Origin: a virus
Reading direction: 5' to 3' (one strand)
IMG/VR virus record: IMGVR_UViG_3300021959_007301
Span: 1-64,000 of that record
DNA length: 64,000 nt
Shown one piece after another: positions 25,216 through 39,086 of this stretch; position 1 is the stretch's first letter; every line of letters starts with the position of its first letter. Both the position numbers and the translations under genes were made by a program. The notes below the pieces were generated by a model. The model worked only from the letters and a program-made list of their open reading frames with translations, was not told the DNA's origin and did not search any database.

Positions 25216-26430
25216 ATGGCTGATGAAATCTATATAAACACAGGGTCGAGTTTTCAACAACCGTACCAAGGTCAATCTGTAAGAAATGCTCAATCGCTAG
25301 AAGTCAGACAGACTCCTGCACAGACTCCTGCAAACGCAAGACAACCTAGTACGTATCAAAACAGACAACCGTTTACCTACAGAAGTCCTGTAAATGCACA
25401 GACACCATTTATAAGAAACGCTCAGCAACCCTTTACATACCAAAACCAAGGTAGAACACCTTTTACCTATAACTATCGTTCTCCGTTCACGTATGCACGT
25501 CAGGGACAGACTCCTTTCACGTATGCAAGACAGGGTAGAACACCATATGTTGCAAATGCACAACAACCGTATCCTTATATCGCAAATAGTCAGACTCCAT
25601 ACATTGCTAATGCTCAACAACCCTATCCGTACATAGCAAACAAACAGAGTCCATACATTGCAAATGGTCAGAGTCCATACATTGCAAATGCTCAGTCACC
25701 TTATATTGCAAACGCTCAACAACCGTATCCGTACATTGCATCGTATCAAAGTCCGTTTACCTATAATCATAGACAACCGTTTACCTATGCAAGACAGGGT
25801 AGGTCACCATTTACGTATAGTAATCAACAACCTTACCCATATATTGCACAGACACCTTATACGTTTAATGCAACTGGAACACAAAGCATCAGTCCTCTAG
25901 ACCAATCTTGGGGCCCATCAGGTGCAAGTCCATGGGTTCCTCGTCAAAGTGTTAACTCTTCAGGATTCCCTGAAGCATTCGCAACAATGGGGTTTAGTTT
26001 AGACACTACAAATAACCAAGTCGATGTTAGCTGGAAAGCTGGTACTTCAGCACAAATGGCAACAGTGTATACCGACTCAATTAATTATCAGTCTCCAGTA
26101 ACAGATTCTTCAACATTTGAATGTAAATATACAGTATCTCAGCAATCGTGTTCAGGTAATTGTATGAGTGGTGCATTTGGGCCCACACCAGTTACCGATG
26201 GGTATAATTCAGGAACATATTATTCACTCACAACATTTGGTTGGATGGCAAAGGTTAATCCAAACTATGGTTCGTCCTTTTCAAGGGTTGAAACTGGTAT
26301 TGGTGGCACATATGGTGTAACATTTACAGTCCGTGCAACTCCTTCAGGAAGTAGTGACAGTTATATTACAACTTATACTTCAGGTGGAATAGAACTGATT
26401 GCATCTACAGGACAGTTTAACGAGAACTAA
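25216..26430 (+). CDS. Pro/Tyr/Gln/Arg repeat protein, pair 1 chain C, with non-repetitive C-terminal domain
   Basis: 6/8/10 aa units such as QQPYPYIANS and RSPFTYARQG at about 25321-25848, then about 190 aa of beta-rich sequence. Confidence 0.85.
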   Translation: MADEIYINTGSSFQQPYQGQSVRNAQSLEVRQTPAQTPANARQPSTYQNRQPFTYRSPVNAQTPFIRNAQQPFTYQNQGRTPFTYNYRSPFTYARQGQTPFTYARQGRTPYVANAQQPYPYIANSQTPYIANAQQPYPYIANKQSPYIANGQSPYIANAQSPYIANAQQPYPYIASYQSPFTYNHRQPFTYARQGRSPFTYSNQQPYPYIAQTPYTFNATGTQSISPLDQSWGPSGASPWVPRQSVNSSGFPEAFATMGFSLDTTNNQVDVSWKAGTSAQMATVYTDSINYQSPVTDSSTFECKYTVSQQSCSGNCMSGAFGPTPVTDGYNSGTYYSLTTFGWMAKVNPNYGSSFSRVETGIGGTYGVTFTVRATPSGSSDSYITTYTSGGIELIASTGQFNEN

Positions 26431-26432
26431 AA

Positions 26433-27248
26433 ATGGCAGAGTTGCAAACCACACAACAACCGTATCCTTATATTGCACAAGGTCAAACACCTTATGCATT
26501 GCAGGGTAGAACGCCTTATATTGCTAATGCACAGCAACCGTATCCTTATATTGCGAATGCACAAAGTCCATATATTGCTAATGCAAGACAACCTGTAACC
26601 TATGCAAGACAGGGTCAAACACCGTTTACGTATCAGAGTAGACAACCATTTACTTATCAGAACAGACAACCGTTTACATATCAAAATAGACAACCTGTTA
26701 CCTATGCACGTCAAGGTCAAACACCATTTACCTATAGTAACAGACAACCTGCAACGTATGCTAGACAAGGTAGAACACCTTTCACGTATAACAATCAACA
26801 ACCTTATCCGTACATTGCAAATGCTCAACAACCCTATCCGTACATTGCAAATGCACAGGAACCAAATATTAGGTCTGCACAACAGGCATATCCTTACATT
26901 GCAAATGCAAGGAATCCGTTTACCTATCAACATAGGTCACCTTCTACATATAGAAACCCTGTAAATGCACAGAGTCCGTATATTGCAAATAGTCAAACAC
27001 CATTTACCTATCAAGTTGCATATCAGATTCCTTATACTATAAGGTCACCATTTACCTATCAAGTATCCTACCCAACTACAAGAACCGTTGGGCCAGTTGC
27101 AAAGGTTAAAGGTGTTTTTGTGAATGATAGTGGAACACTTAGAAAACTTGATGAAGTATATGTAAACGATGGTGGAACATTAGAAAAAATTCACCAGTCC
27201 GTTCCTACTGCAAGATTCTCTAAGAATCCAAGTAACACGAGTGTATAA
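26433..27248 (+). CDS. Pro/Tyr/Gln/Arg repeat protein, pair 1 chain D
   Basis: Same unit vocabulary at about 26454-27011; C-terminal VFVNDSG/VYVNDGG hairpin-type repeat. Confidence 0.85.
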   Translation: MAELQTTQQPYPYIAQGQTPYALQGRTPYIANAQQPYPYIANAQSPYIANARQPVTYARQGQTPFTYQSRQPFTYQNRQPFTYQNRQPVTYARQGQTPFTYSNRQPATYARQGRTPFTYNNQQPYPYIANAQQPYPYIANAQEPNIRSAQQAYPYIANARNPFTYQHRSPSTYRNPVNAQSPYIANSQTPFTYQVAYQIPYTIRSPFTYQVSYPTTRTVGPVAKVKGVFVNDSGTLRKLDEVYVNDGGTLEKIHQSVPTARFSKNPSNTSV

Positions 27249-28855: not shown

Positions 28856-30271
28856 ATGGCAACAGTAATTCAAATTAAAAGAAGTACTGGGGTTTCTGCA
28901 CCTACTACGTCAGACCTTTCAGAAGGAGAATTGGCGTATATTCAGGACAGAAGTAACAGTGGTGCTGGTGCAAAACTTTTCATAGAATCAGTTGACTCCG
29001 ACAATAGTACTCCATTAATCCATGCGATTGGTGGTAAGTTCTATACCGATATTATTGATGGTTCATCTGCTACACCAGCAGATTTCAAAGTCGGTAACGG
29101 TTCAACATCAGGTGGTTCTGTAAAGTTTTACGAAGATTCGGACAATGGTGTTCACTTCGTTGCACTTAAGTCGCCAGACTCAGTCGCTTCAGACTTAACT
29201 TTTGTACTTCCAGCATCAGATGGTAGTGCAAACCAAGTATTAGGAACAGACGGTTCAGGTAACCTATCTTTCCTTTCAACAACATCAACACTTGCAGGTG
29301 CATCTGACTCAGATATCTCTACTCCATCATCAGGACAAATCCTTGTTCATGACGGTTCAGATTCATTTGACAACGTAACACTAAGTGGAGACGTGACACT
29401 TGCATCTAATGGTGCAGTCACAATCGCTTCTAACGCAGTTGAAGTCGGTATGATTGACTTCTTAGTTGACGAAGATGACATGAACTCTGATTCAGATGTC
29501 AAAGTCCCTTCACAACAATCTGTTAAAGCATACGTTGATTCACAAGTAACTGCTCAAGATTTAGACGTTGCTGGTGATTCAGGAACAGGTGCAATTGATT
29601 TAGATTCACAATCATTAACGATTGCTGGTACATCTAATGAGATTGAAACATCTGCTTCAGGACAAACAATAACAATCGGTTTACCTAATGACGTAACAGT
29701 AGGAAATGACCTAACAGTTACAGGAAACTTAACAGTTTCAGGAACAACCACAACTGTAGACTCAACAACAGTATCAATTGCAGACCCTGTATTTGAAATT
29801 GGTGACGATTCTGCAGACGACAACCTCGATAGAGGTATTAAATTCAAATATAACGATGGATCTGCTAAAGTAGGTTTCTTCGGTATGGACGAATCTAATG
29901 AGAAGTTCGTAGCATTACATGATGCAACAGACAGTTCTTCAGTATTCACAGGTACAGCAATGGATGCAGTATTTGGTGGATTAGAAGCAACAGGTCTTGC
30001 ATTATCAGGTTCAATTACTTCAGTCGATGGTGCAGCTCCAACTGCAGGTCAATTATTAATTGGTAACGGTTCTAACGGAGACATGGAACTTGCAGCTCTA
30101 ACTGCAGGCTCTAACGGTGTAACAATCACCAACGCAGACGGTTCTATAACTATTGAAAATGCGATTGCTTCTACATCACAAGTTGGTGTGGCATCATTTG
30201 CTTCTTCAGAGTTCTCAGTAACTGGTGCTGGTGAAGTTTCTATCTCCAACATAGACGGTGGTTCATTCTAA
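28856..30271 (+). CDS. Tail fibre-like protein
   Basis: N-terminal IQIKRS....P....L.EGELA, GNLTVSGTTTTVDS, DRGI.F; ends IDGGSF. Confidence 0.78.
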   Translation: MATVIQIKRSTGVSAPTTSDLSEGELAYIQDRSNSGAGAKLFIESVDSDNSTPLIHAIGGKFYTDIIDGSSATPADFKVGNGSTSGGSVKFYEDSDNGVHFVALKSPDSVASDLTFVLPASDGSANQVLGTDGSGNLSFLSTTSTLAGASDSDISTPSSGQILVHDGSDSFDNVTLSGDVTLASNGAVTIASNAVEVGMIDFLVDEDDMNSDSDVKVPSQQSVKAYVDSQVTAQDLDVAGDSGTGAIDLDSQSLTIAGTSNEIETSASGQTITIGLPNDVTVGNDLTVTGNLTVSGTTTTVDSTTVSIADPVFEIGDDSADDNLDRGIKFKYNDGSAKVGFFGMDESNEKFVALHDATDSSSVFTGTAMDAVFGGLEATGLALSGSITSVDGAAPTAGQLLIGNGSNGDMELAALTAGSNGVTITNADGSITIENAIASTSQVGVASFASSEFSVTGAGEVSISNIDGGSF

Positions 30272-30300
30272 CAATAATTAATCGTTTATAGGAGTAGCAA

Positions 30301-31125
30301 ATGGCAACAGTAATTCAATTTAAGAGAAGTTCGACTCAAGGTTCTTCGCCGACCACTGGTGATTTATCACTCGGTGAATTAGCGATTAATACATATCATG
30401 GTAGGGTCTATACTGAGGCAGATAATGGAACAGCTTCTATTGTAGAAGTTGGTTCAAATCCTGCAACTCTTACTGTTAACGATGCGTACTCTTTTCCAAC
30501 AAGTGATGGTAACTCTAACGAAGCATTAACAACTGATGGTTCAGGACAGTTAAGTTTCACTGCACTTCCTTCATCAGGAATTGAAACTTTCACCTATTCA
30601 ATCACATCTACTGGTACAGGTATCAGTGGTGCAGATGATAATTCAAACACACTTCAGTACCAAGTAGGTTCTGAACAAGTTTTTATTAATGGTGTTAAGT
30701 TAATAAGTGGTTCAGACTATACTGCAACTTCATCAACCGTAATAACCCTTGCAGAAAATGCTGTAAATGGTGATACAGTTGAAGTCGTTGCAATAACCGA
30801 CACACAAAATCTTGTGCAAGGTTATTATACGGCTAACACTTTCAGTGCAACAACTGCTGACCAAGTTTTATCATCCAATGGAGTCGCAAACAAAGCGATT
30901 AAGTATGTTATAAATGCAACTCACGCCTCTGCAGGAACACATGCTGCAGAAGTATTGTTGATTAACGATGGTACGAATGCATATTTCATCCAATACGGTG
31001 ACGTGTATTCATCATCATCATTGTTCTCACTTAGTTCAGATGTGAATTCAGGTAACATGAGACTTCTCATTACACCTGCAAACACTGACACTACAGTTGA
31101 TACTTTCCAAATTAGGCATTCATAG
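30301..31125 (+). CDS. Tail fibre-like protein
   Basis: N-terminus paralogous to 28856 (IQFKRS...L.LGELA); PTSDG....LTTDGSG.LSF; C-terminal domain shared with 31139 and 31629. Confidence 0.75.
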   Translation: MATVIQFKRSSTQGSSPTTGDLSLGELAINTYHGRVYTEADNGTASIVEVGSNPATLTVNDAYSFPTSDGNSNEALTTDGSGQLSFTALPSSGIETFTYSITSTGTGISGADDNSNTLQYQVGSEQVFINGVKLISGSDYTATSSTVITLAENAVNGDTVEVVAITDTQNLVQGYYTANTFSATTADQVLSSNGVANKAIKYVINATHASAGTHAAEVLLINDGTNAYFIQYGDVYSSSSLFSLSSDVNSGNMRLLITPANTDTTVDTFQIRHS

Positions 31126-31138
31126 GAGGAGATGAATA

Positions 31139-31549
31139 ATGGCAAAGACAAAAGCATTTGAAATTGCAGAATTGATTAGACACCTTCGATATGATGCTGA
31201 TACAGACGAGATTGTAACTGATAAGGTAACTCAAGACAAAAACAAAAAGAGGGGTAATGCAACAAAAACCTCTACTGACGAATTTGCTCTTGATACTTTT
31301 GCAAAATCAGATTACAGAGCTGGACGATATATCGTTGCAATGTCTGAAGGATCAAAGTATCACTCAACTGAAATCGTGTTAGTTCACGATGGAAGTAGTG
31401 TAACAATGACACAATATGGCACACTTAAATCACACTCGTTAGCAACCTTTGATGCAGACATTTCAGGATCAGACGTAAGACTGCTCGTGACACCTGCATC
31501 CACAAGTTCTACAGTGATTAAATTCGATAGAACAGTAGTCGAAGCATAA
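31139..31549 (+). CDS. Fibre-associated structural protein
   Basis: Shared domain Y.V......HSTEI..VHDG......YG......F.ADISG.DVRL..TPA. Confidence 0.7.
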   Translation: MAKTKAFEIAELIRHLRYDADTDEIVTDKVTQDKNKKRGNATKTSTDEFALDTFAKSDYRAGRYIVAMSEGSKYHSTEIVLVHDGSSVTMTQYGTLKSHSLATFDADISGSDVRLLVTPASTSSTVIKFDRTVVEA

Positions 31550-31571
31550 AATCAAAAAATGCAATCTAGAT

Positions 31572-31597
31572 GGGGGACTTTATGTCCCCCTTCTTTT
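31572..31597 (+). terminator. Rho-independent terminator
   Basis: gggggac-tttat-gtccccc followed by ttctttt. Confidence 0.7.
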
Positions 31598-31628
31598 ATA
31601 TGCACGGTAAAAATGACTAAATAGTATA

Positions 31629-32462
31629 ATGGCAACGAAACATAAACTTATTGCAGACTTGGGACTTGCAACTAACGGTGACTTGAGTGTTGATGGAAAC
31701 GCAACAATTACAGGAAACTTAACGGTTAATGGTACGACAATTACCATTAACTCTACTACCACATCAGTTGAAGACAGTTTATTAGAACTTGCAAATCAGA
31801 ACACTTCTAGTGACACTATAGATATTGGTTTCTATGGTAACTATGATGATGGTTTATCAGATGATGCAAGTGAGTATACAGGTCTATTCAGAGATGCATC
31901 AGATTCCACATGGAAACTCTTTGATGGTCTAGAAGTCGAGCCAGGAACAACGGTAGACACTACAGGTTCAGGATATGCAAAGGCAGCACTAGAAGTTGGT
32001 GATTTAACTGCAACGACACTCAATGTATCAAACAGTATCACTGGTGCAAGTATATCATACCCAACATCAGACGGAACAAGCGGACAGGTTCTTACAACCA
32101 ATGGCAGTGGAACATTAACATTTCAAGATGCAGGAAGTGGACTTAGTGAAGGTAGTGTAACAACTACATCAACTTCTGAAACAAATTTAGATACATGGTC
32201 TTCTTCAACGTATCGATCCGTTAAATATACTATATCAATTTCAGATAGTACTGCAGGTGATTACGAAATGACTGAGATACATGTACTACACGATGGTACA
32301 AATGCATATTTCTCTCAATTCGGTACTGTACTTGCAGGAACCACGAGTGAATTAGTATCTTTTGGTGTTGATATCAGTGGTGGGGATGTGAGATTAAGAA
32401 TTACACCTGCTTCTACAAACTCTACTGCAATAAAGTTTAAAAAAATTGAAATTGGGGTGTAG
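31629..32462 (+). CDS. Tail fibre-like protein
   Basis: GNLTVNGTTITINS, DIGFYG, GLFRDASD, plus the shared C-terminal HDGT..DISGG.VRL.ITPA domain. Confidence 0.75.
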   Translation: MATKHKLIADLGLATNGDLSVDGNATITGNLTVNGTTITINSTTTSVEDSLLELANQNTSSDTIDIGFYGNYDDGLSDDASEYTGLFRDASDSTWKLFDGLEVEPGTTVDTTGSGYAKAALEVGDLTATTLNVSNSITGASISYPTSDGTSGQVLTTNGSGTLTFQDAGSGLSEGSVTTTSTSETNLDTWSSSTYRSVKYTISISDSTAGDYEMTEIHVLHDGTNAYFSQFGTVLAGTTSELVSFGVDISGGDVRLRITPASTNSTAIKFKKIEIGV

Positions 32463-32531
32463 TTTAAACATCACAAACTCATAAATACAAGTGTTAAACC
32501 ACACTTTTAAGTTTTATAGGACACACAAAAC

Positions 32532-32792
32532 ATGGCAACACAGAATACATTTGTTATAGAGTACGGATTGACAGTGGGTTCTACAGAGGTTATCAATAGT
32601 TCAGGTAAACTACAGGCAACTGCATTATCAGAATTAGACACAGATAGTCTTTCAGAAGGTTCCACGAATCAATACTTTTCAAACACAAGAGCAAGAGGTT
32701 CTATATCACTTGCTACTGGAGAATCAAATTTAAGTTATAATTCATCTACTGGTGAACTTTCATTACCAACAGTTGATGGGGGTAGTATCTAA
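32532..32792 (+). CDS. Small fibre connector protein
   Basis: GLTVG..EVI.SSG N-terminus shared with 32792; TD.LSEGSTN.Y..RAR; ends VDGGSI. Confidence 0.7.
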   Translation: MATQNTFVIEYGLTVGSTEVINSSGKLQATALSELDTDSLSEGSTNQYFSNTRARGSISLATGESNLSYNSSTGELSLPTVDGGSI

Positions 32793-34309
32793 TGGCAGGG
32801 GAAAAGAATTTTATAATCAAGAATGGTCTGACCGTTGGTAACGTAGAGGTTATCGATAGTTCAGGTAACATCACTGCAAGTGGTGTTGGTGCTGCCGTTC
32901 AAGAAGCAATCGCAGACAAAATCGGTGGTATTATTCAGGGTTCAGGTTCAACCACAGTAACCTATGATGATACAAACGATACTATCACGATTTCATCAAC
33001 TGGTAAGACAGAAGAAGAGATTCAAGATATAGTTGGTGGTCAATTAGTAACCAACGGTTCACATACAAACATTACTGCATCTTACGATGATGCAGGAGAC
33101 GGTGCAGTTGACCTTGTAATTTCAGATGCAACAATTCAATCTAAAATTACTGCTGGAACTGGTGTTTCAGTTTCAAGTGGTGAAGTTAGTATCGGTCAGG
33201 CAGTAGGAACTTCAGATTCACCTTCATTTGCAGGTATGACACTTACAGGTGCATCAACAGTTTCAGGACATATTCTTCCAAGTGCAGATGTTACCTACGA
33301 CTTAGGTTCAGCATCGTATCAATGGAGAGACGTATATGTCGGGTCAGGGTCACTTTATGTTAACGGACAAAAAGTATTAGAAGATAGTTCAGGAACAATC
33401 GTTGTTTCTGCTGACAGTGACCAAAACCTTCAAATGAAAACTGCTGGTAGTGGTGACATTGAGTTCAACCCATCAGGTACAGGTATCATTCAAGCAAAAG
33501 GTACACTTCAAATGTTGGATGGTGAAACAATCACCAACAGTGCAGGTAACGATGTAGAGTTTGGAAACAATATCAGTGTAAACCAAATTGCATCAAGAAG
33601 TGCAGATACTAACTTAGTATTAAGTGGTAATGGAACAGGTAATGTTACACTTAACGATACAGTTGTAATTACTGGAGACCTTACAGTTTCAGGTACAACA
33701 ACTACTGTTAACTCAGAAACAATCAACCTTGCAGATAACATTCTAAATTTAAACTCTGATTTCACATCAGGTTCACCTACTCAAGATGCTGGTTTAAGTA
33801 TCTCAAGAGGTGGTTCAGCTGCAAAAACATTCTTATGGGATGAGACCAACGATAGATGGACAGTCGGTTCAGAGTCTATGGTTGCAGCAACATTTATTGG
33901 TAACTTAACTGGAGATGTAACTGGAACAGTTTCAGATATTTCAAACCATGATACAGACGATGTTTCTGAAGGCTCAACCAATTTATATCATACTACTGCA
34001 AGAGCAAGAGGTTCAATCTCTGCTGGTGGTGATTTATCATACAACAGTTCAACTGGTGTAGTATCATTTACTGAAAGAACAGATTCAGAAGTACAAGGAT
34101 TAATCACTGCAGGAACTGGTGTTTCAGTTTCTTCAGGTCAGGTAAGTATCGGACAGGCAGTTTCAACATCATCAAACGTAGAGTTTACACAAATTAGTAC
34201 AAACTATGCCAACAATAGTGGTGCTGTTGCAAGGAATATACATCAATCAACTTCTACACCTTCATCAGGTGATGGTGCAGTTGGTGACTTGTGGATTTAC
34301 TACGCATAA
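32792..34309 (+). CDS. Tail fibre-like protein with C-terminal PSSG..GDLW motif
   Basis: EEIQDIVG, ILP.ADVTYDLGS...WRD.Y, GDLTVSGTTTTVNS, WDET.DRW; ends STPSSGDGAVGDLWIYYA. Confidence 0.78.
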   Translation: MAGEKNFIIKNGLTVGNVEVIDSSGNITASGVGAAVQEAIADKIGGIIQGSGSTTVTYDDTNDTITISSTGKTEEEIQDIVGGQLVTNGSHTNITASYDDAGDGAVDLVISDATIQSKITAGTGVSVSSGEVSIGQAVGTSDSPSFAGMTLTGASTVSGHILPSADVTYDLGSASYQWRDVYVGSGSLYVNGQKVLEDSSGTIVVSADSDQNLQMKTAGSGDIEFNPSGTGIIQAKGTLQMLDGETITNSAGNDVEFGNNISVNQIASRSADTNLVLSGNGTGNVTLNDTVVITGDLTVSGTTTTVNSETINLADNILNLNSDFTSGSPTQDAGLSISRGGSAAKTFLWDETNDRWTVGSESMVAATFIGNLTGDVTGTVSDISNHDTDDVSEGSTNLYHTTARARGSISAGGDLSYNSSTGVVSFTERTDSEVQGLITAGTGVSVSSGQVSIGQAVSTSSNVEFTQISTNYANNSGAVARNIHQSTSTPSSGDGAVGDLWIYYA

Positions 34310-34343
34310 ATAATTGCGTAGATTAGTGAGGATAAAAACATAA

Positions 34344-35315
34344 ATGGCGTCAGGTAATCAAAGCGTAAAAACACCTACAGGGTGGAGTGCTACAAGAGGT
34401 GCATGGGTAAAAACTGCACAAGGTACTTGGAGTGCTGTAAAACAAATTTACATCAAAACTCCTACTGGTTGGAATGACGCTTCAGGTCAAGAGTTAACTC
34501 AACAACCTTATCCGTACATTGCAAATGGTCAGTATCCATATATTGCTAATGCACAACAACCTTATCCGTACATTGCAAATGGACAAACACCATATATTGC
34601 AGATGCACAACAACCTTATCCTTATATAGCAAATGCACAATCACCATATATTGCTGATGCACAACAACCTTATCCTTACATTGCAAATGCACAGTCACCT
34701 TATATTGCAAATGGTCAGACACCATTTACGTATCAACATAGACAACCATTTACATATGCTAGACAAGGTCAGACACCATTTACGTATCAACATAGACAAC
34801 CTGTAACATATGCTAGACAAGGACAAACTCCTTTCACATATCAAAACAGACAACCGTTTACCTATCAACATAGGTCACCGTTTACCTATCAACATAGGTC
34901 ACCGTTTACATACAACCATAGGTCTCCATTTACATACAGAAACCCTGTGTCTGCACAAGAACCTAATATTAGAAATGGTCAAACACCGTTCACTTATAGT
35001 GCAAGGTATCCTGCAAATGCTCGATATCCAGCAAACGGTCAAACACCGTTCACTTATAGTGCAAGGTATCCTGCAAATGCAAGACAACCAGTAGCATTTA
35101 GGTCACCGTTTACATATCGTGTACCTTATATTGCTAATGCAAGACAACCAAACAGTGCAAGGAACCCATTTACCTATCGTGTGCCTTATATTGCAAACGC
35201 AAGACAACCAAGTACAGCACAACAACCGTATACGTATAACTTCAGACAGAATGTTGTATACTTCTACGGTGGTGGTGGCGGCGGTGGCGGTTTCTTCCCA
35301 CAACAATTGAAATAA
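34344..35315 (+). CDS. Pro/Tyr/Gln/Arg repeat protein, pair 2 chain A
   Basis: N-terminal VKTPTGW repeats; 30+ units starting at 34500; C-terminal YFY-G8-FF. Confidence 0.85.
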   Translation: MASGNQSVKTPTGWSATRGAWVKTAQGTWSAVKQIYIKTPTGWNDASGQELTQQPYPYIANGQYPYIANAQQPYPYIANGQTPYIADAQQPYPYIANAQSPYIADAQQPYPYIANAQSPYIANGQTPFTYQHRQPFTYARQGQTPFTYQHRQPVTYARQGQTPFTYQNRQPFTYQHRSPFTYQHRSPFTYNHRSPFTYRNPVSAQEPNIRNGQTPFTYSARYPANARYPANGQTPFTYSARYPANARQPVAFRSPFTYRVPYIANARQPNSARNPFTYRVPYIANARQPSTAQQPYTYNFRQNVVYFYGGGGGGGGFFPQQLK

Positions 35316-35333
35316 TGAGGATTATAAAGTAAA

Positions 35334-36161
35334 ATGGCAACAGGTTTTTATAGGACGATAACAACAGGAAATGCGAGAAGCACGATAAACGTGCAGACTC
35401 CGTTTACCTATAATGCTAGGTATCCTGCATCAGCACAACAACCGTTTACGTTCCAAAACCCATTTACGTATTCCAATAGATATCCTGCATCAGCACAACA
35501 ACCTGTAACTTATCGGTCACCGTTTACATATCGTGTGCCTTATATTGCTAATGCAAGACAACCGTTTACCTATAGAGTACCATTTACATATAGGGTTCCT
35601 TATATTGCTAATGCAAGACAACCGTTTACATACAACTATAGGTCACCATTTACCTATAGAAACCCTGTGTCTGCACAAGAACCAAATATAAGGTCTGCAC
35701 AAGAACCAAATATAAGGTCAGCACAAGAACCTAACATTAGAAATGCACAAAGTCCATATATTGCATCAGCACAACAACCGTACCCATATATTGCAAATGC
35801 ACAATCGCCTTATATTGCTAATGCACAACAACCGTATCCTTACATTGCAAATGGACAATACCCATATATTGCTAGTGCAAGACAACCGTTTACATATCAA
35901 CATAGACAACCAGTGACATATGCAAGACAGGGTCAAACACCTTTCACCTATCAGCATAGACAACCAGTGACATATGCAAGACAGGGTCAAACACCTTTCA
36001 CCTATCAAAATAGACAACCATTTACTTATGCACGTCAAGGTCAAACACCATTTACCTATCAACATAGACAACCGTTTACCTATGCAAGACAGGGTAGAAC
36101 TCCAGTTGCAAGATGGGATGGTGAATTATCACAACAGTGGCCTGCAACACCTATTTCCTAG
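35334..36161 (+). CDS. Pro/Tyr/Gln/Arg repeat protein, pair 2 chain B
   Basis: Own RBS (GAGGA); 30 units at 35394-36095. Confidence 0.85.
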   Translation: MATGFYRTITTGNARSTINVQTPFTYNARYPASAQQPFTFQNPFTYSNRYPASAQQPVTYRSPFTYRVPYIANARQPFTYRVPFTYRVPYIANARQPFTYNYRSPFTYRNPVSAQEPNIRSAQEPNIRSAQEPNIRNAQSPYIASAQQPYPYIANAQSPYIANAQQPYPYIANGQYPYIASARQPFTYQHRQPVTYARQGQTPFTYQHRQPVTYARQGQTPFTYQNRQPFTYARQGQTPFTYQHRQPFTYARQGRTPVARWDGELSQQWPATPIS

Positions 36162-36200
36162 TGACTAAATACTAGTAAGTTTAACAATTCGGTTTATATT

Positions 36201-37754
36201 ATGTTTATTGATTTAAAGGAATACGATATTGCAAAAGAAATCCTCTCAAAGGTTGAGGATTTCAGTGGTAAGTATTATCATCTAGGACAAATTGACATAG
36301 ACAGAGATTACTCTGAAAAAGAATCGTATAAGATTCTGAAGTATGTCATGGAAGAAATCATTCCACCAATTAAGATTTTTAAATGGGGTGATTTTGAAAA
36401 GGAACGCAAATCATCTAAGTGGTCACTGTTCAACGGTCTCAAAAATGAAGCACCATGTTATCATAAATTCCTACCTTTAGGATACACCACCAAACCAAGA
36501 AATGAAGAGAAAGGTGTCGCAGGTATGGACACCATTACACTTGATGGTGAGTACATAGATATTGAAAACGAAGTCACATGGAATGATGGATACACTCCTA
36601 CAGAAAGTGATGCAGAGTCATTACATTCAATGTATTACCATGCTGCAAAAGCACACTGGTTAACTCAAAGTATTCAAAAAGAAGGTCTTTGGGCACCAAT
36701 TCAAGGTAAAGTGGTAGAACTTGTTAAAGATAGCAGATATCAATTAAGAATACATCCAGGCTCTGTTAGGTCAGGAGTATTTGAAGAAATGGGTGACCCT
36801 GATATGGAGTTATGTATCATAGATAAGTATGATGCAATCGATTCCCCTGCTGTTACTGTAGATGAACTTATAGAGTATTGGAAAACCAAACTTGATGCAA
36901 GACCTGAATTAAATAAAGACAATGGACACTATAATGTTTCCTTTACACTTATTGAAGGTGCATTAGAGTATAATACAAACTTAATGAACGTAGGTATGTT
37001 TCGTCCAGTTGTATATGAATTCAATAAAAAGGTTACAGAACTTGCAAAAGGTAAACCATTCAATATCTATATTGGATACGACAGTAGACACAGAGACCTG
37101 CCTGAGATTGCAAAAAAATCTATATTAGACACCATCGAAAAGGACACTGGTAATGGTCACTGTATTGAACAGGTAAAATTTAAACCTGAAGTTAAGTTCT
37201 TAGATGTTTCAAAGATACCTGAATACACTAGAGAGTATGCAAATCAATCAACTGAGTTTACTTACAGTAGATTTTTAATTCCATACTTAGAGAACTATGA
37301 AGGATTCAGTATGTTCATTGATGATGACTTCATCTTTCAAAAAAGTTTATTACCTATGTTCTATTATTTAAATCCTGATGATGCTGTTGCATGTATTCAG
37401 TATCCACAATACAAACATGATGGCACTAAGTTTAAAGGTGAGGTAAATATCGATTACCCCAAAAAACTGTGGTCAAGTCTAATGATATTTAACAATGGAC
37501 ATGAAGATTGTAAAAAATTAACACCTGAAGTGGTTAACACTTGGACAGGAAAACAACTCCATCAATTTGAATGGACGGACAAAATCAGTAAGATTCCTGA
37601 ACGATATATATTTACAGAAGGGTATGATGACCCTGAAACTAAATGGGATTTCAACGGTATTCATTACACAAGGGGTGGGCCTTGGGTAGAAAGTATGGAT
37701 TATTCCCACATAAATAATTTAGATATTTACAAAAGATGGGAAATTTTAGTTTGA
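36201..37754 (+). CDS. Two-domain protein: unknown N-terminal domain plus GT-A glycosyltransferase domain
   Basis: C-terminal half IYIGYDSR, STEFTYSRFLIPYL, FIDDDF (DxD), YP.K.WSSLM.FN, HYT.GGPW. Confidence 0.78.
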   Translation: MFIDLKEYDIAKEILSKVEDFSGKYYHLGQIDIDRDYSEKESYKILKYVMEEIIPPIKIFKWGDFEKERKSSKWSLFNGLKNEAPCYHKFLPLGYTTKPRNEEKGVAGMDTITLDGEYIDIENEVTWNDGYTPTESDAESLHSMYYHAAKAHWLTQSIQKEGLWAPIQGKVVELVKDSRYQLRIHPGSVRSGVFEEMGDPDMELCIIDKYDAIDSPAVTVDELIEYWKTKLDARPELNKDNGHYNVSFTLIEGALEYNTNLMNVGMFRPVVYEFNKKVTELAKGKPFNIYIGYDSRHRDLPEIAKKSILDTIEKDTGNGHCIEQVKFKPEVKFLDVSKIPEYTREYANQSTEFTYSRFLIPYLENYEGFSMFIDDDFIFQKSLLPMFYYLNPDDAVACIQYPQYKHDGTKFKGEVNIDYPKKLWSSLMIFNNGHEDCKKLTPEVVNTWTGKQLHQFEWTDKISKIPERYIFTEGYDDPETKWDFNGIHYTRGGPWVESMDYSHINNLDIYKRWEILV

Positions 37755-37779
37755 CAAATCCCACATTATAGTTTATAAT
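37751..37779 (+). promoter_or_regulatory. Consensus sigma70-type (early) promoter
   Basis: TTGACA (37751-37756), 17 nt spacer, TATAAT (37774-37779), then RBS GAGG and ATG 37796. Confidence 0.8.
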
Positions 37780-37795
37780 ATGAAAGAGGTAACTT

Positions 37796-38362
37796 ATGAA
37801 AAGTGAATTAATATATACAGAAAATGGTGAATTGAGAATCACCAAACCTAATGGTCTCTCATACAGTTTTGAAAATGTAGATGCACCTGAGTTAGGTTTT
37901 GAATATGACATGCTGGTGTATTCAGACATCGAAGTCAAGGTTCTTAAATGGGACGATAGTTTAGGGTTTGATAGTCAAGACCACATAAAACTTAATGACG
38001 AAGAGAAAGATGCTATTGAGTTATACATAGAAAACTCTGAACCTCCTATAGGTTATTCTTTAAACAACCAATTCCTAAAACGTCTTAATGACATGTGTCA
38101 TGAAAATGTTAATAATCAATGTAATGCATATGGTTTTGATAATGAAGTTGAAGTTCTTATTGCAGGTAGAGAGGGTTCAGCACATCCTGCAAGGTCACCT
38201 GCAAGACGTGTTTTAGAGTACATAGATGCCCTTTGGTGTTGTTATCAACAAGTAGAAGAAGAGATTTTAAATACTAGAGAAGACTTCTTAAAAGACTTCG
38301 AAGAGTATCTTAGTGTAATTCCACAACCTTTACAGGCACCTGATAGTCAAGCCAGGACTTAG
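37796..38362 (+). CDS. Hypothetical protein, possibly tail-fibre assembly/chaperone-like
   Basis: C-terminal helical pattern (YGFD...A..V..YIDALW......EE......FEEYL..IP) recalls fibre-assembly proteins; not confirmed. Confidence 0.5.
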   Translation: MKSELIYTENGELRITKPNGLSYSFENVDAPELGFEYDMLVYSDIEVKVLKWDDSLGFDSQDHIKLNDEEKDAIELYIENSEPPIGYSLNNQFLKRLNDMCHENVNNQCNAYGFDNEVEVLIAGREGSAHPARSPARRVLEYIDALWCCYQQVEEEILNTREDFLKDFEEYLSVIPQPLQAPDSQART

Positions 38363-38363
38363 T

Positions 38364-39086
38364 ATGTCTGATTTTGATATTGTGTACTTGGATGAACCAT
38401 TCAAGGTCACAGAACTACCACTTAAAAAAATCTATGTAATTGATGACTATCTATGTACAGAATTACATCATCATATAGATAAAATTTTAACCAATAGTTC
38501 TATATGGTCTAAGACCAATCAAGTAAGCAGTAGAAATCCCACAGGATTACCACATCATAGTTTTTGGGGTGCAAGTTTTCTTAGAGAGGATGAAAGATTA
38601 GAACAAGGTCAAGATGAATATCACTCCTATATACCTTTATGGTTTAACCGAAGAATCCAAACTGACTTTCAATTTAAGTGGATTAGATTTCAATACATGG
38701 GATTGAATAGTCAGACACAAGGATTACATGGAACCACTCACTCTGATTGTGCTGACCATGATGAATGGAATCTATCTTTTTTATATTACTATAATAGATT
38801 TTGGAACAAGGAGTGGGGTGGAAATTTAAGATTTTATGATGAACCACAGTTTGGACTTCAAGGTAGAGACGAACACATTAAAAACCATCAGATAGGTGAA
38901 GTTGAATTCAAACCTAATAGGTTATTAATGTTTGATGGTAGAATACCACATGGTGCAGATGCACCAACACCTAAAGCAAAATATGTAGACAGAAGGTCAA
39001 TTGTTCTTAGAGGTGACGAGGTTCAATTAATAGATAGTGAGGAAATGTTTAGTGCCAACGATAGAGTTCACAACATACGATACTGA
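38364..39086 (+). CDS. 2OG-Fe(II) oxygenase (prolyl-hydroxylase-like)
   Basis: HSD (HxD), W..EWGG.L.FY, FKPNRL.MFDG.IPH, distal R.S. Confidence 0.82.
   Translation: MSDFDIVYLDEPFKVTELPLKKIYVIDDYLCTELHHHIDKILTNSSIWSKTNQVSSRNPTGLPHHSFWGASFLREDERLEQGQDEYHSYIPLWFNRRIQTDFQFKWIRFQYMGLNSQTQGLHGTTHSDCADHDEWNLSFLYYYNRFWNKEWGGNLRFYDEPQFGLQGRDEHIKNHQIGEVEFKPNRLLMFDGRIPHGADAPTPKAKYVDRRSIVLRGDEVQLIDSEEMFSANDRVHNIRY

What the first reader, a model, noticed from the sequence alone, without database searches (positions are those of the whole stretch)
34344..36161. Two adjacent repeat proteins are exact unit-by-unit mirror complements: a base-pairing-like code at the protein level
Seen in sequence: cutting both proteins before each [Q/R]-x-P gives units of 6, 8 or 10 aa. 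Chain A (34500-35201) has lengths 10,8,10,8,10,8,10,8,8,10,8,10,8,8,8,8,6,6,8,8,6,6,8,6,6,6,8,6,6,8. Chain B (35394-36095) has exactly this list reversed: 30/30 units, 234 aa each. In every antiparallel pair one unit is of the FTY/VTY/FTF class and the other of the ANA-like class. The partners are consistent: QQPYPYIANA with RQP(F/V)TYARQG, QSPYIANA with QTPFTYQH, QEPNIRSA with RSPFTYQH, RNPVSA with RSPFTY, RYPANA with RxPFTY, and RVPYIANA with QTPFTYSA. Each class occurs on both chains, like bases on two DNA strands. Inference: A and B zip into a long antiparallel beta-ribbon or fibre. The even unit lengths would keep strand register and the prolines would mark joints. Sequence order would then encode partner specificity and length. 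I know of no described phage fibre with such a programmable heterodimer code, but I could not search.
Basis: partly seen in the sequence, partly recalled or inferred. Interest (0 to 1): 0.96.

Follow-up and report, generated by a model that had tools for sequence, protein, structure and literature searches.

The report
Mirror-coded two-protein phage fibre duplex
Two neighbouring genes of an uncultured marine T4-like phage encode repeat proteins that match unit by unit and residue by residue when one is read backwards; dozens of relatives of very different length keep this rule, which points to a long two-chain antiparallel protein "duplex" of a kind I could not find described.

Summary
Cut before [Q/R]-x-P, chain A (array 34500-35201) and chain B (35394-36095) give 30 units each, and A's length list equals B's reversed, 30 of 30. 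In each antiparallel pair one unit is x-T-Y/F type and the other is not.

It is not a DNA palindrome: A's array against the reverse complement of B's is 21% identical.

Relatives keep the rule. In 55 of 64 complete gene pairs from viral contigs (arrays 178-544 aa, 53 distinct A architectures) the arrays align boundary to boundary with no internal indel. Array lengths correlate at r = 0.993, and the cognate B is the best partner for 55 of 64 A chains.

Covariation and a side-chain volume test both pick one antiparallel register, offset by 3 residues. In it aromatic residues face small ones.

The window holds a second, orthogonal pair at 25216-27248.

Best reading: a two-chain antiparallel beta duplex forming a tail-fibre shaft, conserved at the virion end and variable at the tip. 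Binding and structure are not shown. No family or paper matched. This scan had noted the same design on other DNA.

The parts
34344..35315 (+). Gene A2 (323 aa), the outward chain: N-terminal anchor, 30-31-unit array, poly-Gly tail
   Evidence: ORF. GAGGA at 34328-34332. Synonymous differences exceed nonsynonymous. 295 relatives in viral contigs.
34344..34499 (+). Conserved N-terminal 52 aa of A (two TPTGW-type motifs), putative virion-proximal anchor
   Evidence: About 25 invariant columns fall within residues 1-49 in a 24-sequence alignment. The N-termini of the 64 pairs are nearly identical.
34500..35201 (+). Array of chain A: 30 units of 10, 8 or 6 aa (234 aa); class order N8 T9 N2 T N2 T N2 T N2 T N
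   Evidence: All 35 Pro-Pro spacings are even, and all 44 aromatics lie on the parity opposite to Pro.
35202..35312 (+). Distal end of A: one extra unit, then ...VVYFY-GGGGGGGG-FFPQQLK. There is no Hint domain here, unlike in at least 14 of 64 relatives.
35334..36161 (+). Gene B2 (275 aa), the returning chain: short variable N-terminus, mirror array, conserved C-terminus
   Evidence: ORF. GAGGA at 35317-35321, 18 nt after A's stop codon. 279 relatives.
35394..36095 (+). Array of chain B: 30 units (234 aa), the exact reverse of A in unit length and the complement in class
   Evidence: At register +3, of 117 even-position pairs 88 have one aromatic, 0 have two and 29 have none. All 66 Pro-containing pairs place Pro opposite Q or R.
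36096..36158 (+). Conserved C-terminus of B (RTPVARWDGELSQQWPATPIS), putative proximal partner of A's N-terminal anchor
   Evidence: Invariant columns G254 T256 P257 R260 W261 D262 G263 Q267 W269 P270 P273. The C-termini of the 64 pairs are listed.
34978..35091 (+). Recent 60-nt tandem duplication in A (units 20-22 and 23-25)
   Evidence: TRF: period 60, 1.9 copies, 92% matches. The units are listed.
35498..35624 (+). Matching 60-nt tandem duplication in B (units 6-8 and 9-11), which are exactly the partners of A units 25-20
   Evidence: TRF: period 60, 2.1 copies, 83% matches. The units are listed.
25216..26430 (+). A1 (404 aa): outward chain of a second, orthogonal mirror pair, with a C-terminal domain of about 200 aa
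26433..27248 (+). B1 (271 aa): returning chain of the second pair, with a C-terminal anchor-like repeat
   Evidence: A1 against reversed B1 scores 38 of 46; non-cognate combinations score 13 or less in the reversed orientation.
32792..34309 (+). Fibre-like structural gene (505 aa), always immediately upstream of the pair
   Evidence: Matches phrog_697 'structural protein' at 7.8e-11. Found upstream in 64 of 64 loci.
36201..37754 (+). 517-aa gene whose C-terminal half resembles a nucleotide-sugar transferase, always downstream of the pair
   Evidence: phrog_28018 at 2.5e-41; Pfam GT8 at only 0.0077, below its cut-off. tblastn hits are annotated as glycosyltransferase. Found downstream in 63 of 64 loci.

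Best explanation
A2 and B2 are the two chains of one long antiparallel protein duplex. It most likely forms the shaft of a distal tail fibre of a T4-like marine myophage.

Chain A runs outward from a conserved N-terminal anchor. Chain B runs back and ends in a conserved C-terminal segment next to that anchor. The variable ends (A's C-terminus and B's N-terminus) meet at the tip.

Both arrays are extended beta strands with a strict two-residue period. All prolines lie on one parity. They would then sit in the non-hydrogen-bonded pairs of a two-stranded ribbon, each opposite the Q or R that heads a partner unit.

On the other parity every cross-strand pair combines one bulky residue with one small one: F or Y from an x-T-Y unit against A or G from an A-N-A-type unit. 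This resembles purine-pyrimidine pairing. A bulky unit on either chain therefore demands a small unit of the same length opposite it.

The order of 6-, 8- and 10-residue units then fixes the register, the partner and the length: 234 residues, about 75-80 nm if fully extended.

Shown: the mirror, its conservation through compensated unit gains and losses, residue-level covariation in one register, and the orthogonality of two pairs in one genome.

Inferred: physical pairing, beta conformation, fibre role, polarity relative to the virion, and oligomeric state.
For: Window pair:
- Mirror 30 of 30, complement score 60 of 60.

Comparative evidence:
- 74 unique pairs gave 2676 matched units, 72 mismatches and 97 gaps when B is reversed. 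B forward gave 1923 matches and shuffled B 1920.
- 55 of 64 complete pairs have no internal indel; they share 2535 unit boundaries.
- Array lengths correlate at r = 0.993 over 178-544 aa.
- The cognate B is top-ranked for 55 of 64 A chains. Mean cognate score is 0.774, non-cognate 0.24, un-reversed 0.109.
- Matched 60-nt duplications lie in partner units of the window's two genes.

Register:
- The antidiagonal i+j = L+4 carries the most covariation in all three unit-length classes (0.29, 0.28, 0.15). The parallel diagonals reach 0.06 at most.
- The SD of summed side-chain volumes is lowest at that same shift: 39.6, against 45.9-58.6 at the 18 other shifts.
- At that shift 2 of 8473 even-position pairs are aromatic-aromatic. 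Other odd shifts give 290-1393.

Compensatory substitutions inside single protein pairs:
- T-unit position 4 against the last residue of the N-unit: F with A/G 1719 of 1764, G with S/N 139 of 139, L with Q 35 of 37.
- Mutual information is 0.62, against 0.141 +/- 0.009 (maximum 0.167) in 300 shuffles within protein and length class.

Beta periodicity: Pro spacings 6185 even and 120 odd; aromatics 6995 against 194 on the parity opposite to Pro.

Fibre context:
- The window is T4-like, with sheath, portal and major capsid genes.
- The pair sits between a fibre-like gene (upstream in 64 of 64 loci) and a transferase-like gene (downstream in 63 of 64).
- The A N-terminus and B C-terminus are conserved, while the other two ends vary and carry extra domains in relatives.
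- The stop of A and the start of B overlap or lie within 3 nt in 13 of 64 pairs.

Single-chain relatives: two proteins of the second pair's family (P0126, P0145) have one unique fold-back register. It holds 34 and 35 Pro-Q/R pairs, against scan medians of 12 and 8 with SDs of 4.1 and 4.4.
Against: - No experiment or confident model shows that A binds B, or that either protein is in the virion.
- 9 of 64 pairs have small internal mismatches or unmatched ends. L008's B has 6 more units than its A, and L014, L075 and L159 also differ. These may be real bulges, evolutionary intermediates or repeat misassemblies.
- 29 of 117 even-position pairs in the window have no aromatic residue, so the steric rule is not universal.
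- The Pro-opposite-Q/R rule follows in part from the unit motif plus the mirror, so it is not independent evidence.
- Unit types are linked alleles and the sequences are related, so the mutual-information values are inflated. Only the within-protein shuffle controls for this.
- No short-read contig spans either array, so the array order rests on the original assemblies. However, three IMG/VR contigs from different samples share the window's architecture.
- A two-stranded ribbon about 77 nm long would be very thin, so a higher-order assembly is likely and is unknown.
Confidence: 0.75

Rival explanations
1. Same antiparallel A:B pairing, but the functional unit is a bundle of duplexes. The likeliest form is three A and three B chains in a six-stranded needle, like the out-and-back needle of the T4 gp37 tip, with the aromatic faces packed inward. 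This refines the best explanation rather than contradicting it.
For: At register +3 one face of the duplex carries nearly all the aromatic residues: 88 of 117 even-position pairs have one. A solvent-exposed aromatic stripe about 77 nm long is unlikely. Phage fibres are usually trimers (general knowledge, recalled). [quoted passage not shown]
Against: Nothing here bears on stoichiometry. Prolines every 6-10 residues on one edge would weaken a closed six-stranded sheet. There is no sequence relation to gp37.
Confidence: 0.35
2. The mirror is a nucleic-acid feature. Gene B would be an inverted copy of gene A, or the two mRNAs would pair, and the protein-level pattern would be a by-product.
For: A mirror-plus-complement rule is what an inverted DNA repeat would suggest at first sight.
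Against: A's array against the reverse complement of B's is 20.9% identical ungapped, and 34.6% at the best of 121 offsets. That is no higher than the direct A-B comparison, 36.5%. Only 3 short inverted repeats of 13-22 nt lie in 34344-36161. Without DNA complementarity, neither gene conversion nor hairpins could keep the arrays mirrored through indels.
Confidence: 0.01
3. A and B do not touch each other. Each forms its own fibre or lines up along a third, symmetric scaffold, and the mirror reflects that shared template.
For: Direct contact is not demonstrated. Several other fibre-like proteins are encoded nearby.
Against: Residue-level compensatory substitutions between specific positions of partner units (F with A/G, G with S/N, L with Q) and constant summed side-chain volume in one register are the signature of direct contact. 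Single-chain relatives fold back on themselves in the same code. No candidate template with matching variable length is known.
Confidence: 0.05
4. The Q/N/Y/P-rich arrays are disordered or amyloid-like adhesive sequences, or stacked beta-solenoid rungs. The order of units would then have no pairing role.
For: The composition is low in complexity. AlphaFold2 gives no confident structure for B2 (pLDDT 31).
Against: Disorder or solenoid stacking gives no reason for unit order in one gene to be the exact reverse complement of the other in 55 of 64 pairs. Nor does it explain cognate-specific matching. The strict two-residue register over up to 544 residues argues for one continuous extended strand.
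Confidence: 0.04

Closest known systems
Needle domain of the T4 long-tail-fibre tip, gp37 (PMC7291167, one passage read; other details recalled)
   Same: An elongated antiparallel beta needle at the distal end of a myophage fibre, in which strands run out to the receptor-binding tip and back. It sits at the end of a tail-fibre gene cluster.
   Different: gp37 is one polypeptide that returns on itself in a homotrimer; here the outward and returning strands are two genes. There is no sequence similarity (no Pfam, PHROG or PDB hit). No unit-length or bulky/small code, and no compensated array-length variation, is known for gp37. The arrays here are several times longer.
Antiparallel two-chain or fold-back rods built from repeats: spectrin alpha/beta heterodimer, SMC/Rad50 coiled-coil arms, streptococcal antigen I/II stalk
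   Same: Two long repetitive segments lie antiparallel and in register, so the lengths of the two segments must match.
   Different: Those rods are alpha-helical or helix/PPII assemblies with fixed repeat numbers. Here there is a two-residue beta period, Pro-punctuated 6/8/10-aa units of two complementary classes on both chains, and rapid compensated evolution of unit number (25-74 units).
Designed orthogonal heterodimer codes (coiled-coil sets, DNA-like protein pairing) and nucleic-acid base pairing (recalled)
   Same: Partner choice, register and length are written in the linear order of a few complementary unit types. Two orthogonal pairs coexist in one genome.
   Different: This is a natural protein system. 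Complementarity appears to be steric (aromatic against small) within a beta ribbon, not hydrogen-bond or charge patterned. It is unproven experimentally.
Hint / Hedgehog-type / bacterial intein-like autoprocessing domains (Pfam PF14890, PF01079, PF14623)
   Same: At least 14 of 64 relatives of chain A end in such a domain directly after poly-Gly (…GGGG-CF…VLVHN). L004 scores 45.1 bits against PF14890, whose cut-off is 35.8. Many database homologues carry it too.
   Different: The window's A2 has no Hint domain. The residue after HN is not C, S or T in those relatives, so splicing is unlikely. Its role at the fibre tip is unknown.

Membership tests
T4 gp37-type long tail fibre tip (needle) | Detectable sequence or profile similarity to gp37 or its Pfam families | tested here: not met
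   No Pfam family for A or B at E <= 0.1. No PDB chain at E <= 1 for A; one irrelevant hit at 0.37 for B. The Atlas gave only a sub-threshold lead: a cluster in which 83% of members carry gp37_trimer, at score 0.78.
T4 gp37-type long tail fibre tip (needle) | A single chain that runs out and back, forming an antiparallel needle | tested here: not met
   The outward and returning arrays are separate ORFs with their own start sites. None of 28 longer homologues is an A2-B2 fusion. Two single-chain fold-back forms exist only in the second pair's family.
T4 gp37-type long tail fibre tip (needle) | Homotrimer with metal-binding His-x-His repeats (recalled feature) | not testable with these tools
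   Oligomeric state is unknown. No H-x-H motif is visible in the arrays printed, but I recalled the feature and did not look it up.
Collagen-like / polyproline triple helix | Three-residue period (Gly-X-Y) | tested here: not met
   The period is two residues: Pro spacings are even 6185 times and odd 120 times. Units are 6, 8 or 10 aa.
Any curated phage or general protein family (Pfam-A, PHROGs) | Profile match above threshold | tested here: not met
   A: 0 Pfam and 0 PHROG families. B: 0 Pfam, and one weak PHROG of unknown function (phrog_33328, E = 0.0023).
Hint / intein-like autoprocessing domain | C-terminal Hint fold with an N-terminal Cys and a C-terminal His-Asn | tested here: not met
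   The window's A2 ends GGGGGGGGFFPQQLK with no such domain. The feature is met in relatives such as L004, L064 and L079.
Two-stranded antiparallel beta ribbon (structural class, not a family) | Two-residue periodicity, same-parity cross-strand covariation on an antidiagonal, prolines confined to one parity | tested here: met
   This evidence is sequence-based only; no structure was obtained.
T4-like myophage tail-fibre module | Location among late structural and fibre genes, with a conserved proximal end and a variable distal end | tested here: met
   Sheath, portal and capsid genes lie in the window. Fibre-like neighbours and conserved synteny. Conservation pattern of the chain ends. Presence in the virion was not tested.

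The most novel reading that the evidence does not exclude
A natural, evolvable protein "duplex code". Two polypeptides would recognise each other along hundreds of residues through a small alphabet of complementary units: bulky x-T-Y units against small A-N-A-type units, in 6-, 8- and 10-residue lengths, in an antiparallel beta ribbon. Sequence order alone would then set partner identity, register and fibre length.

This would let one virion carry orthogonal fibres. It would also let fibre length evolve by paired duplications in two genes.

In relatives, a Hint domain placed exactly after the poly-Gly end of chain A might additionally process, or covalently lock, the distal end of the duplex.
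Probability: 0.55. Interest if true: 0.95.

Novelty: categorically new. Interest (0 to 1): 0.9.

Why it matters
If the pairing is real, this is a protein-protein recognition principle that works like nucleic-acid complementarity. It would be linear, modular, antiparallel and length-programmable, and it already comes in orthogonal natural variants.

That would give structural biology a new fibre architecture. It would give protein design a ready-made set of beta-strand heterodimer codes with hundreds of natural test cases.

For phage biology it would explain how an abundant group of uncultured marine myophages, relatives of pelagiphage HTVC008M and OM43 phage Melnitz, varies the length and tips of its fibres.

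It is also a rare case where inter-protein contacts can be read from repeat-architecture covariation alone.

Tried and rejected
**Complex and structure prediction**
- Complex prediction of A2 + B2 (24-row alignments A1 and A2) returned 'no answer': ipSAE 0.00 in both runs, and the controls were not run. It counts neither for nor against binding.
- AlphaFold2 of B2 with alignment A2 gave mean pLDDT 31.3 and no structure.
- AlphaFold2 of the single-chain relative P0145 without an alignment gave mean pLDDT 29.9. Neither model was usable, so no fold search was made.
- The protein Atlas gave feature hits of 0.82 or below, all under its 0.9 level. Its structure hits were to extended or repetitive models (extensin-like, pentapeptide). 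These are leads only.

**DNA palindrome idea**: rejected.

**Cultured phages**
- megablast of 32000-38500 found no match.
- tblastn of A2 and of A1 found no match.
- tblastn of B2 hit 4 Pseudomonas phage records (39.7-39.8% identity, E = 5e-5 to 2e-4). The annotated protein there is an unrelated SAASNTG repeat protein, so this is a low-complexity artefact.
- BLAST's low-complexity filter was on, so array-only relatives could be missed.

**Fused A2-B2 forms**: none among the 28 longer homologues.

**Loci with only one repeat ORF** (12 listed): most lie at contig ends. In L144 and L148 the upstream ORF is the small gene that sits between A and B in other loci, so A lies beyond the contig end.

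**Sequencing runs**
- 17 of 24 listed runs hold at least half of the sampled words.
- I laid 4 of the 24. The DNA runs X3 and X6 carry contigs identical to the window across the A-B junction (35093-35549 and 35125-35468).
- Contigs of relatives occur in two metatranscriptomic libraries, but this does not show transcription.
- No contig spans an array, and parts without cover mean nothing.

**Literature**: searches on pelagimyophage tail fibres, antiparallel heterodimer fibres, mirror or complementary repeat proteins, Hint plus tail fiber, and four array motifs found nothing describing this. I saw search listings only, except one passage of PMC7291167. Supplementary files were not consulted.
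Full report
**1. What is there**

The stretch holds two same-strand genes, A2 (34344..35315, 323 aa) and B2 (35334..36161, 275 aa). They are 18 nt apart, and each has a GAGGA motif upstream. A's first 30 unit lengths equal B's first 30 reversed, 234 aa each.

I coded units by length and class. Class T has x-T-[YF] after the Pro; class N is everything else. On that coding, A against reversed B reaches the maximum complement score of 60 of 60. Un-reversed it scores 18, and A against itself reversed scores 20. Shuffling B's unit order matched 19.5 of 30 lengths on average and never more than 23 in 200 shuffles.

Against relatives, codons with only synonymous changes outnumber nonsynonymous ones: 31 vs 22 and 40 vs 11 against L001, 98 vs 79 and 82 vs 61 against L003. 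These are protein-coding genes under purifying selection.

**2. Not a nucleic-acid palindrome**

A mirror-plus-complement rule invites the idea that gene B is an inverted copy of gene A. It is not. A's array against the reverse complement of B's is 20.9% identical ungapped, and 34.6% at the best of 121 offsets. The direct A-B comparison is higher, at 36.5%. Only three inverted repeats of 13-22 nt exist in the region.

**3. Context**

The window is part of an 87-kb viral record with T4-like sheath, portal and major capsid genes. The capsid protein is 67.5% identical to that of OM43 phage Melnitz and 65.2% to pelagiphage HTVC008M.

No record in the phage collection searched encodes a recognisable A2 or A1. 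The only B2 hit is a low-complexity artefact. Neither protein matches a Pfam family, and PHROGs give only one weak family of unknown function for B. There is no meaningful match to any PDB chain.

The protein collection holds 405 homologues at E <= 1e-5. All come from metagenomes, and none has a name other than 'hypothetical protein'.

**4. The comparative test**

Two scans of IMG/VR found 295 and 279 relatives, and I kept 160 loci. Of these, 147 carry two adjacent [QR]xP-rich ORFs. With the window, that gives 74 unique pairs.
- Aligning A's unit lengths to reversed B gave 2676 matches, 72 mismatches and 97 gaps. Forward B gave 1923 matches and shuffled B 1920.
- Many of the mismatches are parse failures where a Pro is substituted.
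- A boundary-based residue alignment of the 64 complete pairs shows 55 with no internal indel, 2535 shared boundaries and 114 boundaries present in one chain only.
- Arrays range from 178 to 544 aa, and A and B lengths correlate at r = 0.993.
- There are 53 distinct A architectures. The cognate B is the best complement for 55 of 64 A chains (mean cognate score 0.774, non-cognate 0.24, un-reversed 0.109, same class instead of complementary class -0.021).

Unit gains and losses are therefore compensated in the partner gene.

The window itself shows such an event. A 60-nt tandem duplication in A (34978-35091, units 20-25) lies opposite a 60-nt duplication in B (35498-35624, units 6-11), and those units are exactly its partners.

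Exceptions exist. L008's B has 6 more units than its A, and L014, L075 and L159 also differ. They may be bulged intermediates or repeat misassemblies.

**5. Residue-level register**

I oriented unit pairs as (N unit, T unit) and computed mutual information for all position pairs, flanks included, after subtracting a shuffled-partner baseline and applying an APC correction.
- The antidiagonal i+j = L+4 is the strongest in all three length classes (0.29, 0.28, 0.15).
- The next strongest are L+6 or L+2, which are same-face neighbours.
- No parallel diagonal exceeds 0.06.

An independent steric test gave the same register. Over 73 perfectly mirrored segments (16,946 residue pairs), the SD of the summed side-chain volumes of opposed residues is 39.6 at shift +3. 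At the other 18 shifts it is 45.9-58.6.

At shift +3, 5461 of 8473 even-position pairs hold exactly one aromatic residue and only 2 hold two. The other odd shifts give 290-1393 aromatic-aromatic pairs. In addition, 4764 of 4858 prolines face Q or R, though this follows partly from the unit motif plus the mirror.

In the window pair at this register:
- Of 117 even-position pairs, 88 have one aromatic, 0 have two and 29 have none. A-Y occurs 25 times, A-F 20 and R-Y 10.
- On the other parity, all 66 Pro-containing pairs are Pro with Q or R. The rest include N-T (18), S-T (9) and I-Q (9).

**6. Compensatory substitutions**

Within single protein pairs, position 4 of the T unit and the last residue of the N unit co-vary:
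- F with A/G, 1719 of 1764
- G with S/N, 139 of 139
- A with S/N, 36 of 37
- L with Q, 35 of 37

Mutual information is 0.62. In 300 shuffles of partners within the same protein pair and length class it is 0.141 +/- 0.009, with a maximum of 0.167.

In 8-mers, N-unit position 4 co-varies with T-unit position 8: Y with N/A 589 of 644, and N with H/Y 453 of 466. These two positions also lie on i+j = L+4. This is the protein analogue of base-pair covariation, and it is hard to explain without direct contact.

**7. Why beta**

Pro-Pro spacings inside the arrays are even 6185 times and odd 120 times. Aromatic residues lie on the parity opposite to Pro 6995 times and on the same parity 194 times. The window's two chains give 35/0 and 32/1 for the spacings, and 44/0 and 44/2 for the aromatics.

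A two-residue period kept over up to 544 residues is what an uninterrupted extended strand would give. With an odd register offset (+3), the prolines of both chains fall in the same class of cross-strand pair. In a two-stranded antiparallel ribbon this would be the non-hydrogen-bonded class, with the imino groups on the outer edges. This last step is inference from general beta-sheet geometry.

At about 0.33 nm per residue, 234 residues give roughly 75-80 nm, and the family spans roughly 60-180 nm. This too is inference.

**8. Polarity and ends**

A's first 52 residues and B's last ~20 are nearly invariant across relatives. A's C-terminus and B's N-terminus vary.

In relatives, A's C-terminus after a poly-Gly run takes one of three forms:
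- short, as in the window;
- a Hint/intein-like domain (…GGGG-CF…VLVHN) in at least 14 of 64. Thirteen were found by motif and L004 by Pfam (PF14890, 45.1 bits against a cut-off of 35.8). L063 has a variant ending. The residue after HN is never C, S or T;
- a beta-rich domain, with an extra 86-100-aa ORF between A and B, in 16 of 64.

This pattern of a conserved proximal end and a variable distal end (sometimes with a possible chaperone gene) is the usual layout of phage fibres. That comparison is general knowledge, recalled.

Other context points:
- The pair always sits between a fibre-like gene (upstream in 64 of 64 loci) and a transferase-like gene (downstream in 63 of 64).
- Stop-start overlap or a spacing of 3 nt or less in 13 of 64 pairs fits equimolar synthesis.
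- Gene order is B then A in 6 of 64 pairs.

**9. A second, orthogonal pair, and single-chain forms**

The window holds another pair, A1 (25216..26430) and B1 (26433..27248). Twenty consecutive units mirror each other. A1 against reversed B1 scores 38 of 46, whereas A1/B2 and A2/B1 score 13 reversed and 16 un-reversed. On Pro-to-Q/R opposition, the cognate pairs reach 69 and 55, and the non-cognate combinations 33-36.

Relatives of this second family also show the mirror, for example L184 and L189 at 20 of 20.

Among 28 longer homologues none is an A2-B2 fusion. Two proteins, P0126 (610 aa) and P0145 (636 aa), combine an A1-type N-terminus with a B1-type C-terminal anchor. Each has one outstanding fold-back register, with 34 and 35 Pro-Q/R pairs against scan medians of 12 and 8 (SD 4.1 and 4.4), and only 2 and 1 aromatic-aromatic pairs. 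The same code thus also appears within one chain, as a hairpin would require.

**10. What failed or is missing**

Complex and structure predictions gave nothing usable (see Tried and rejected). Independent metagenomes carry identical sequence across the A-B junction, and related contigs occur in metatranscriptomic libraries.

**11. Comparison and novelty**

The closest functional analogue is the out-and-back antiparallel needle of the T4 gp37 fibre tip (PMC7291167, passage). That is one chain in a homotrimer with no detectable sequence relation to these proteins.

Spectrin alpha/beta, SMC arms and the antigen I/II stalk (all recalled) share the idea of two register-matched antiparallel segments, but they are helical.

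Six literature searches found no description of mirror-complementary repeat protein pairs or of these motifs.

Earlier notes of this scan report the same design in other genomes and reach similar readings. I re-derived the mirror and its conservation independently. As far as those notes show, the following are additions here:
- the palindrome rejection;
- the +3 register from two independent tests;
- the within-protein compensatory substitutions;
- the partner-identification test;
- the single-chain fold-back relatives;
- the Hint-after-poly-Gly tip.

**12. Verdict**

The antiparallel pairing interpretation is strongly supported by covariation but unproven physically. The oligomeric state and presence in the virion are unknown. 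I rate it categorically new and of high interest.

Noticed in passing
window 25216-27248: A second mirror-complementary gene pair. A1 is 404 aa with a C-terminal domain of about 200 aa and no family match. B1 is 271 aa with a C-terminal KVKGVFVN…-type repeat. Twenty consecutive units mirror each other, and the pair is orthogonal to the pair under study.
   Followed up: partly
relatives: L004:4001-5302, L064:4001-5296, L079:4001-5605 and at least 11 more: Chain A of at least 14 of 64 relatives ends in a Hint/intein-like domain directly after poly-Gly (GGGG-CF…VLVHN, with a residue after HN that is not C, S or T). This looks like a Hedgehog/BIL-type self-cleavage site at the presumed fibre tip. 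The window's A2 has only the poly-Gly and a 7-residue tail.
   Followed up: partly
relatives: e.g. L023:5429-5747, L070:6158-6443, L150:3667-4000: In 16 of 64 pairs an 86-100-aa ORF sits between A and B. In the examples I looked at, A there carries a beta-rich, non-Hint C-terminal domain. The ORF may be a fibre-tip chaperone.
   Followed up: no
proteins P0126 (610 aa) and P0145 (636 aa): Natural single-chain proteins with an A1-type N-terminus and a B1-type C-terminal anchor. Their two halves are complementary in one unique fold-back register.
   Followed up: partly
window 36201-37754: A 517-aa gene whose C-terminal half resembles nucleotide-diphospho-sugar transferases. It lies next to the pair in 63 of 64 loci. 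Whether it modifies the fibre (for example the conserved Thr or Asn of the units) is unknown.
   Followed up: partly
L008 vs L007; L014 vs L013; L075; L159: Apparently uncompensated array differences. L007 and L008 have identical A chains but B chains of 372 and 416 aa. These could be natural intermediates with bulges, or repeat misassemblies.
   Followed up: no
window 28856-34309: A run of five consecutive same-strand genes. Four give fibre-like or structural PHROG matches (phrog_697, phrog_15769, and N-terminal matches to long-tail-fibre subunits); the 136-aa gene at 31139-31549 was not scanned. The run precedes the pair, and its genes lie upstream of the pair in 29-64 of the 64 related loci. 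This suggests a multi-part fibre with the duplex as its last segment.
   Followed up: partly
window 34500-35201 and relatives: Unit lengths form super-repeats of 18 aa (10+8) near the conserved end and 20 aa (8+6+6) near the variable end in most relatives. I did not examine whether these match the twist period of a beta ribbon.
   Followed up: no
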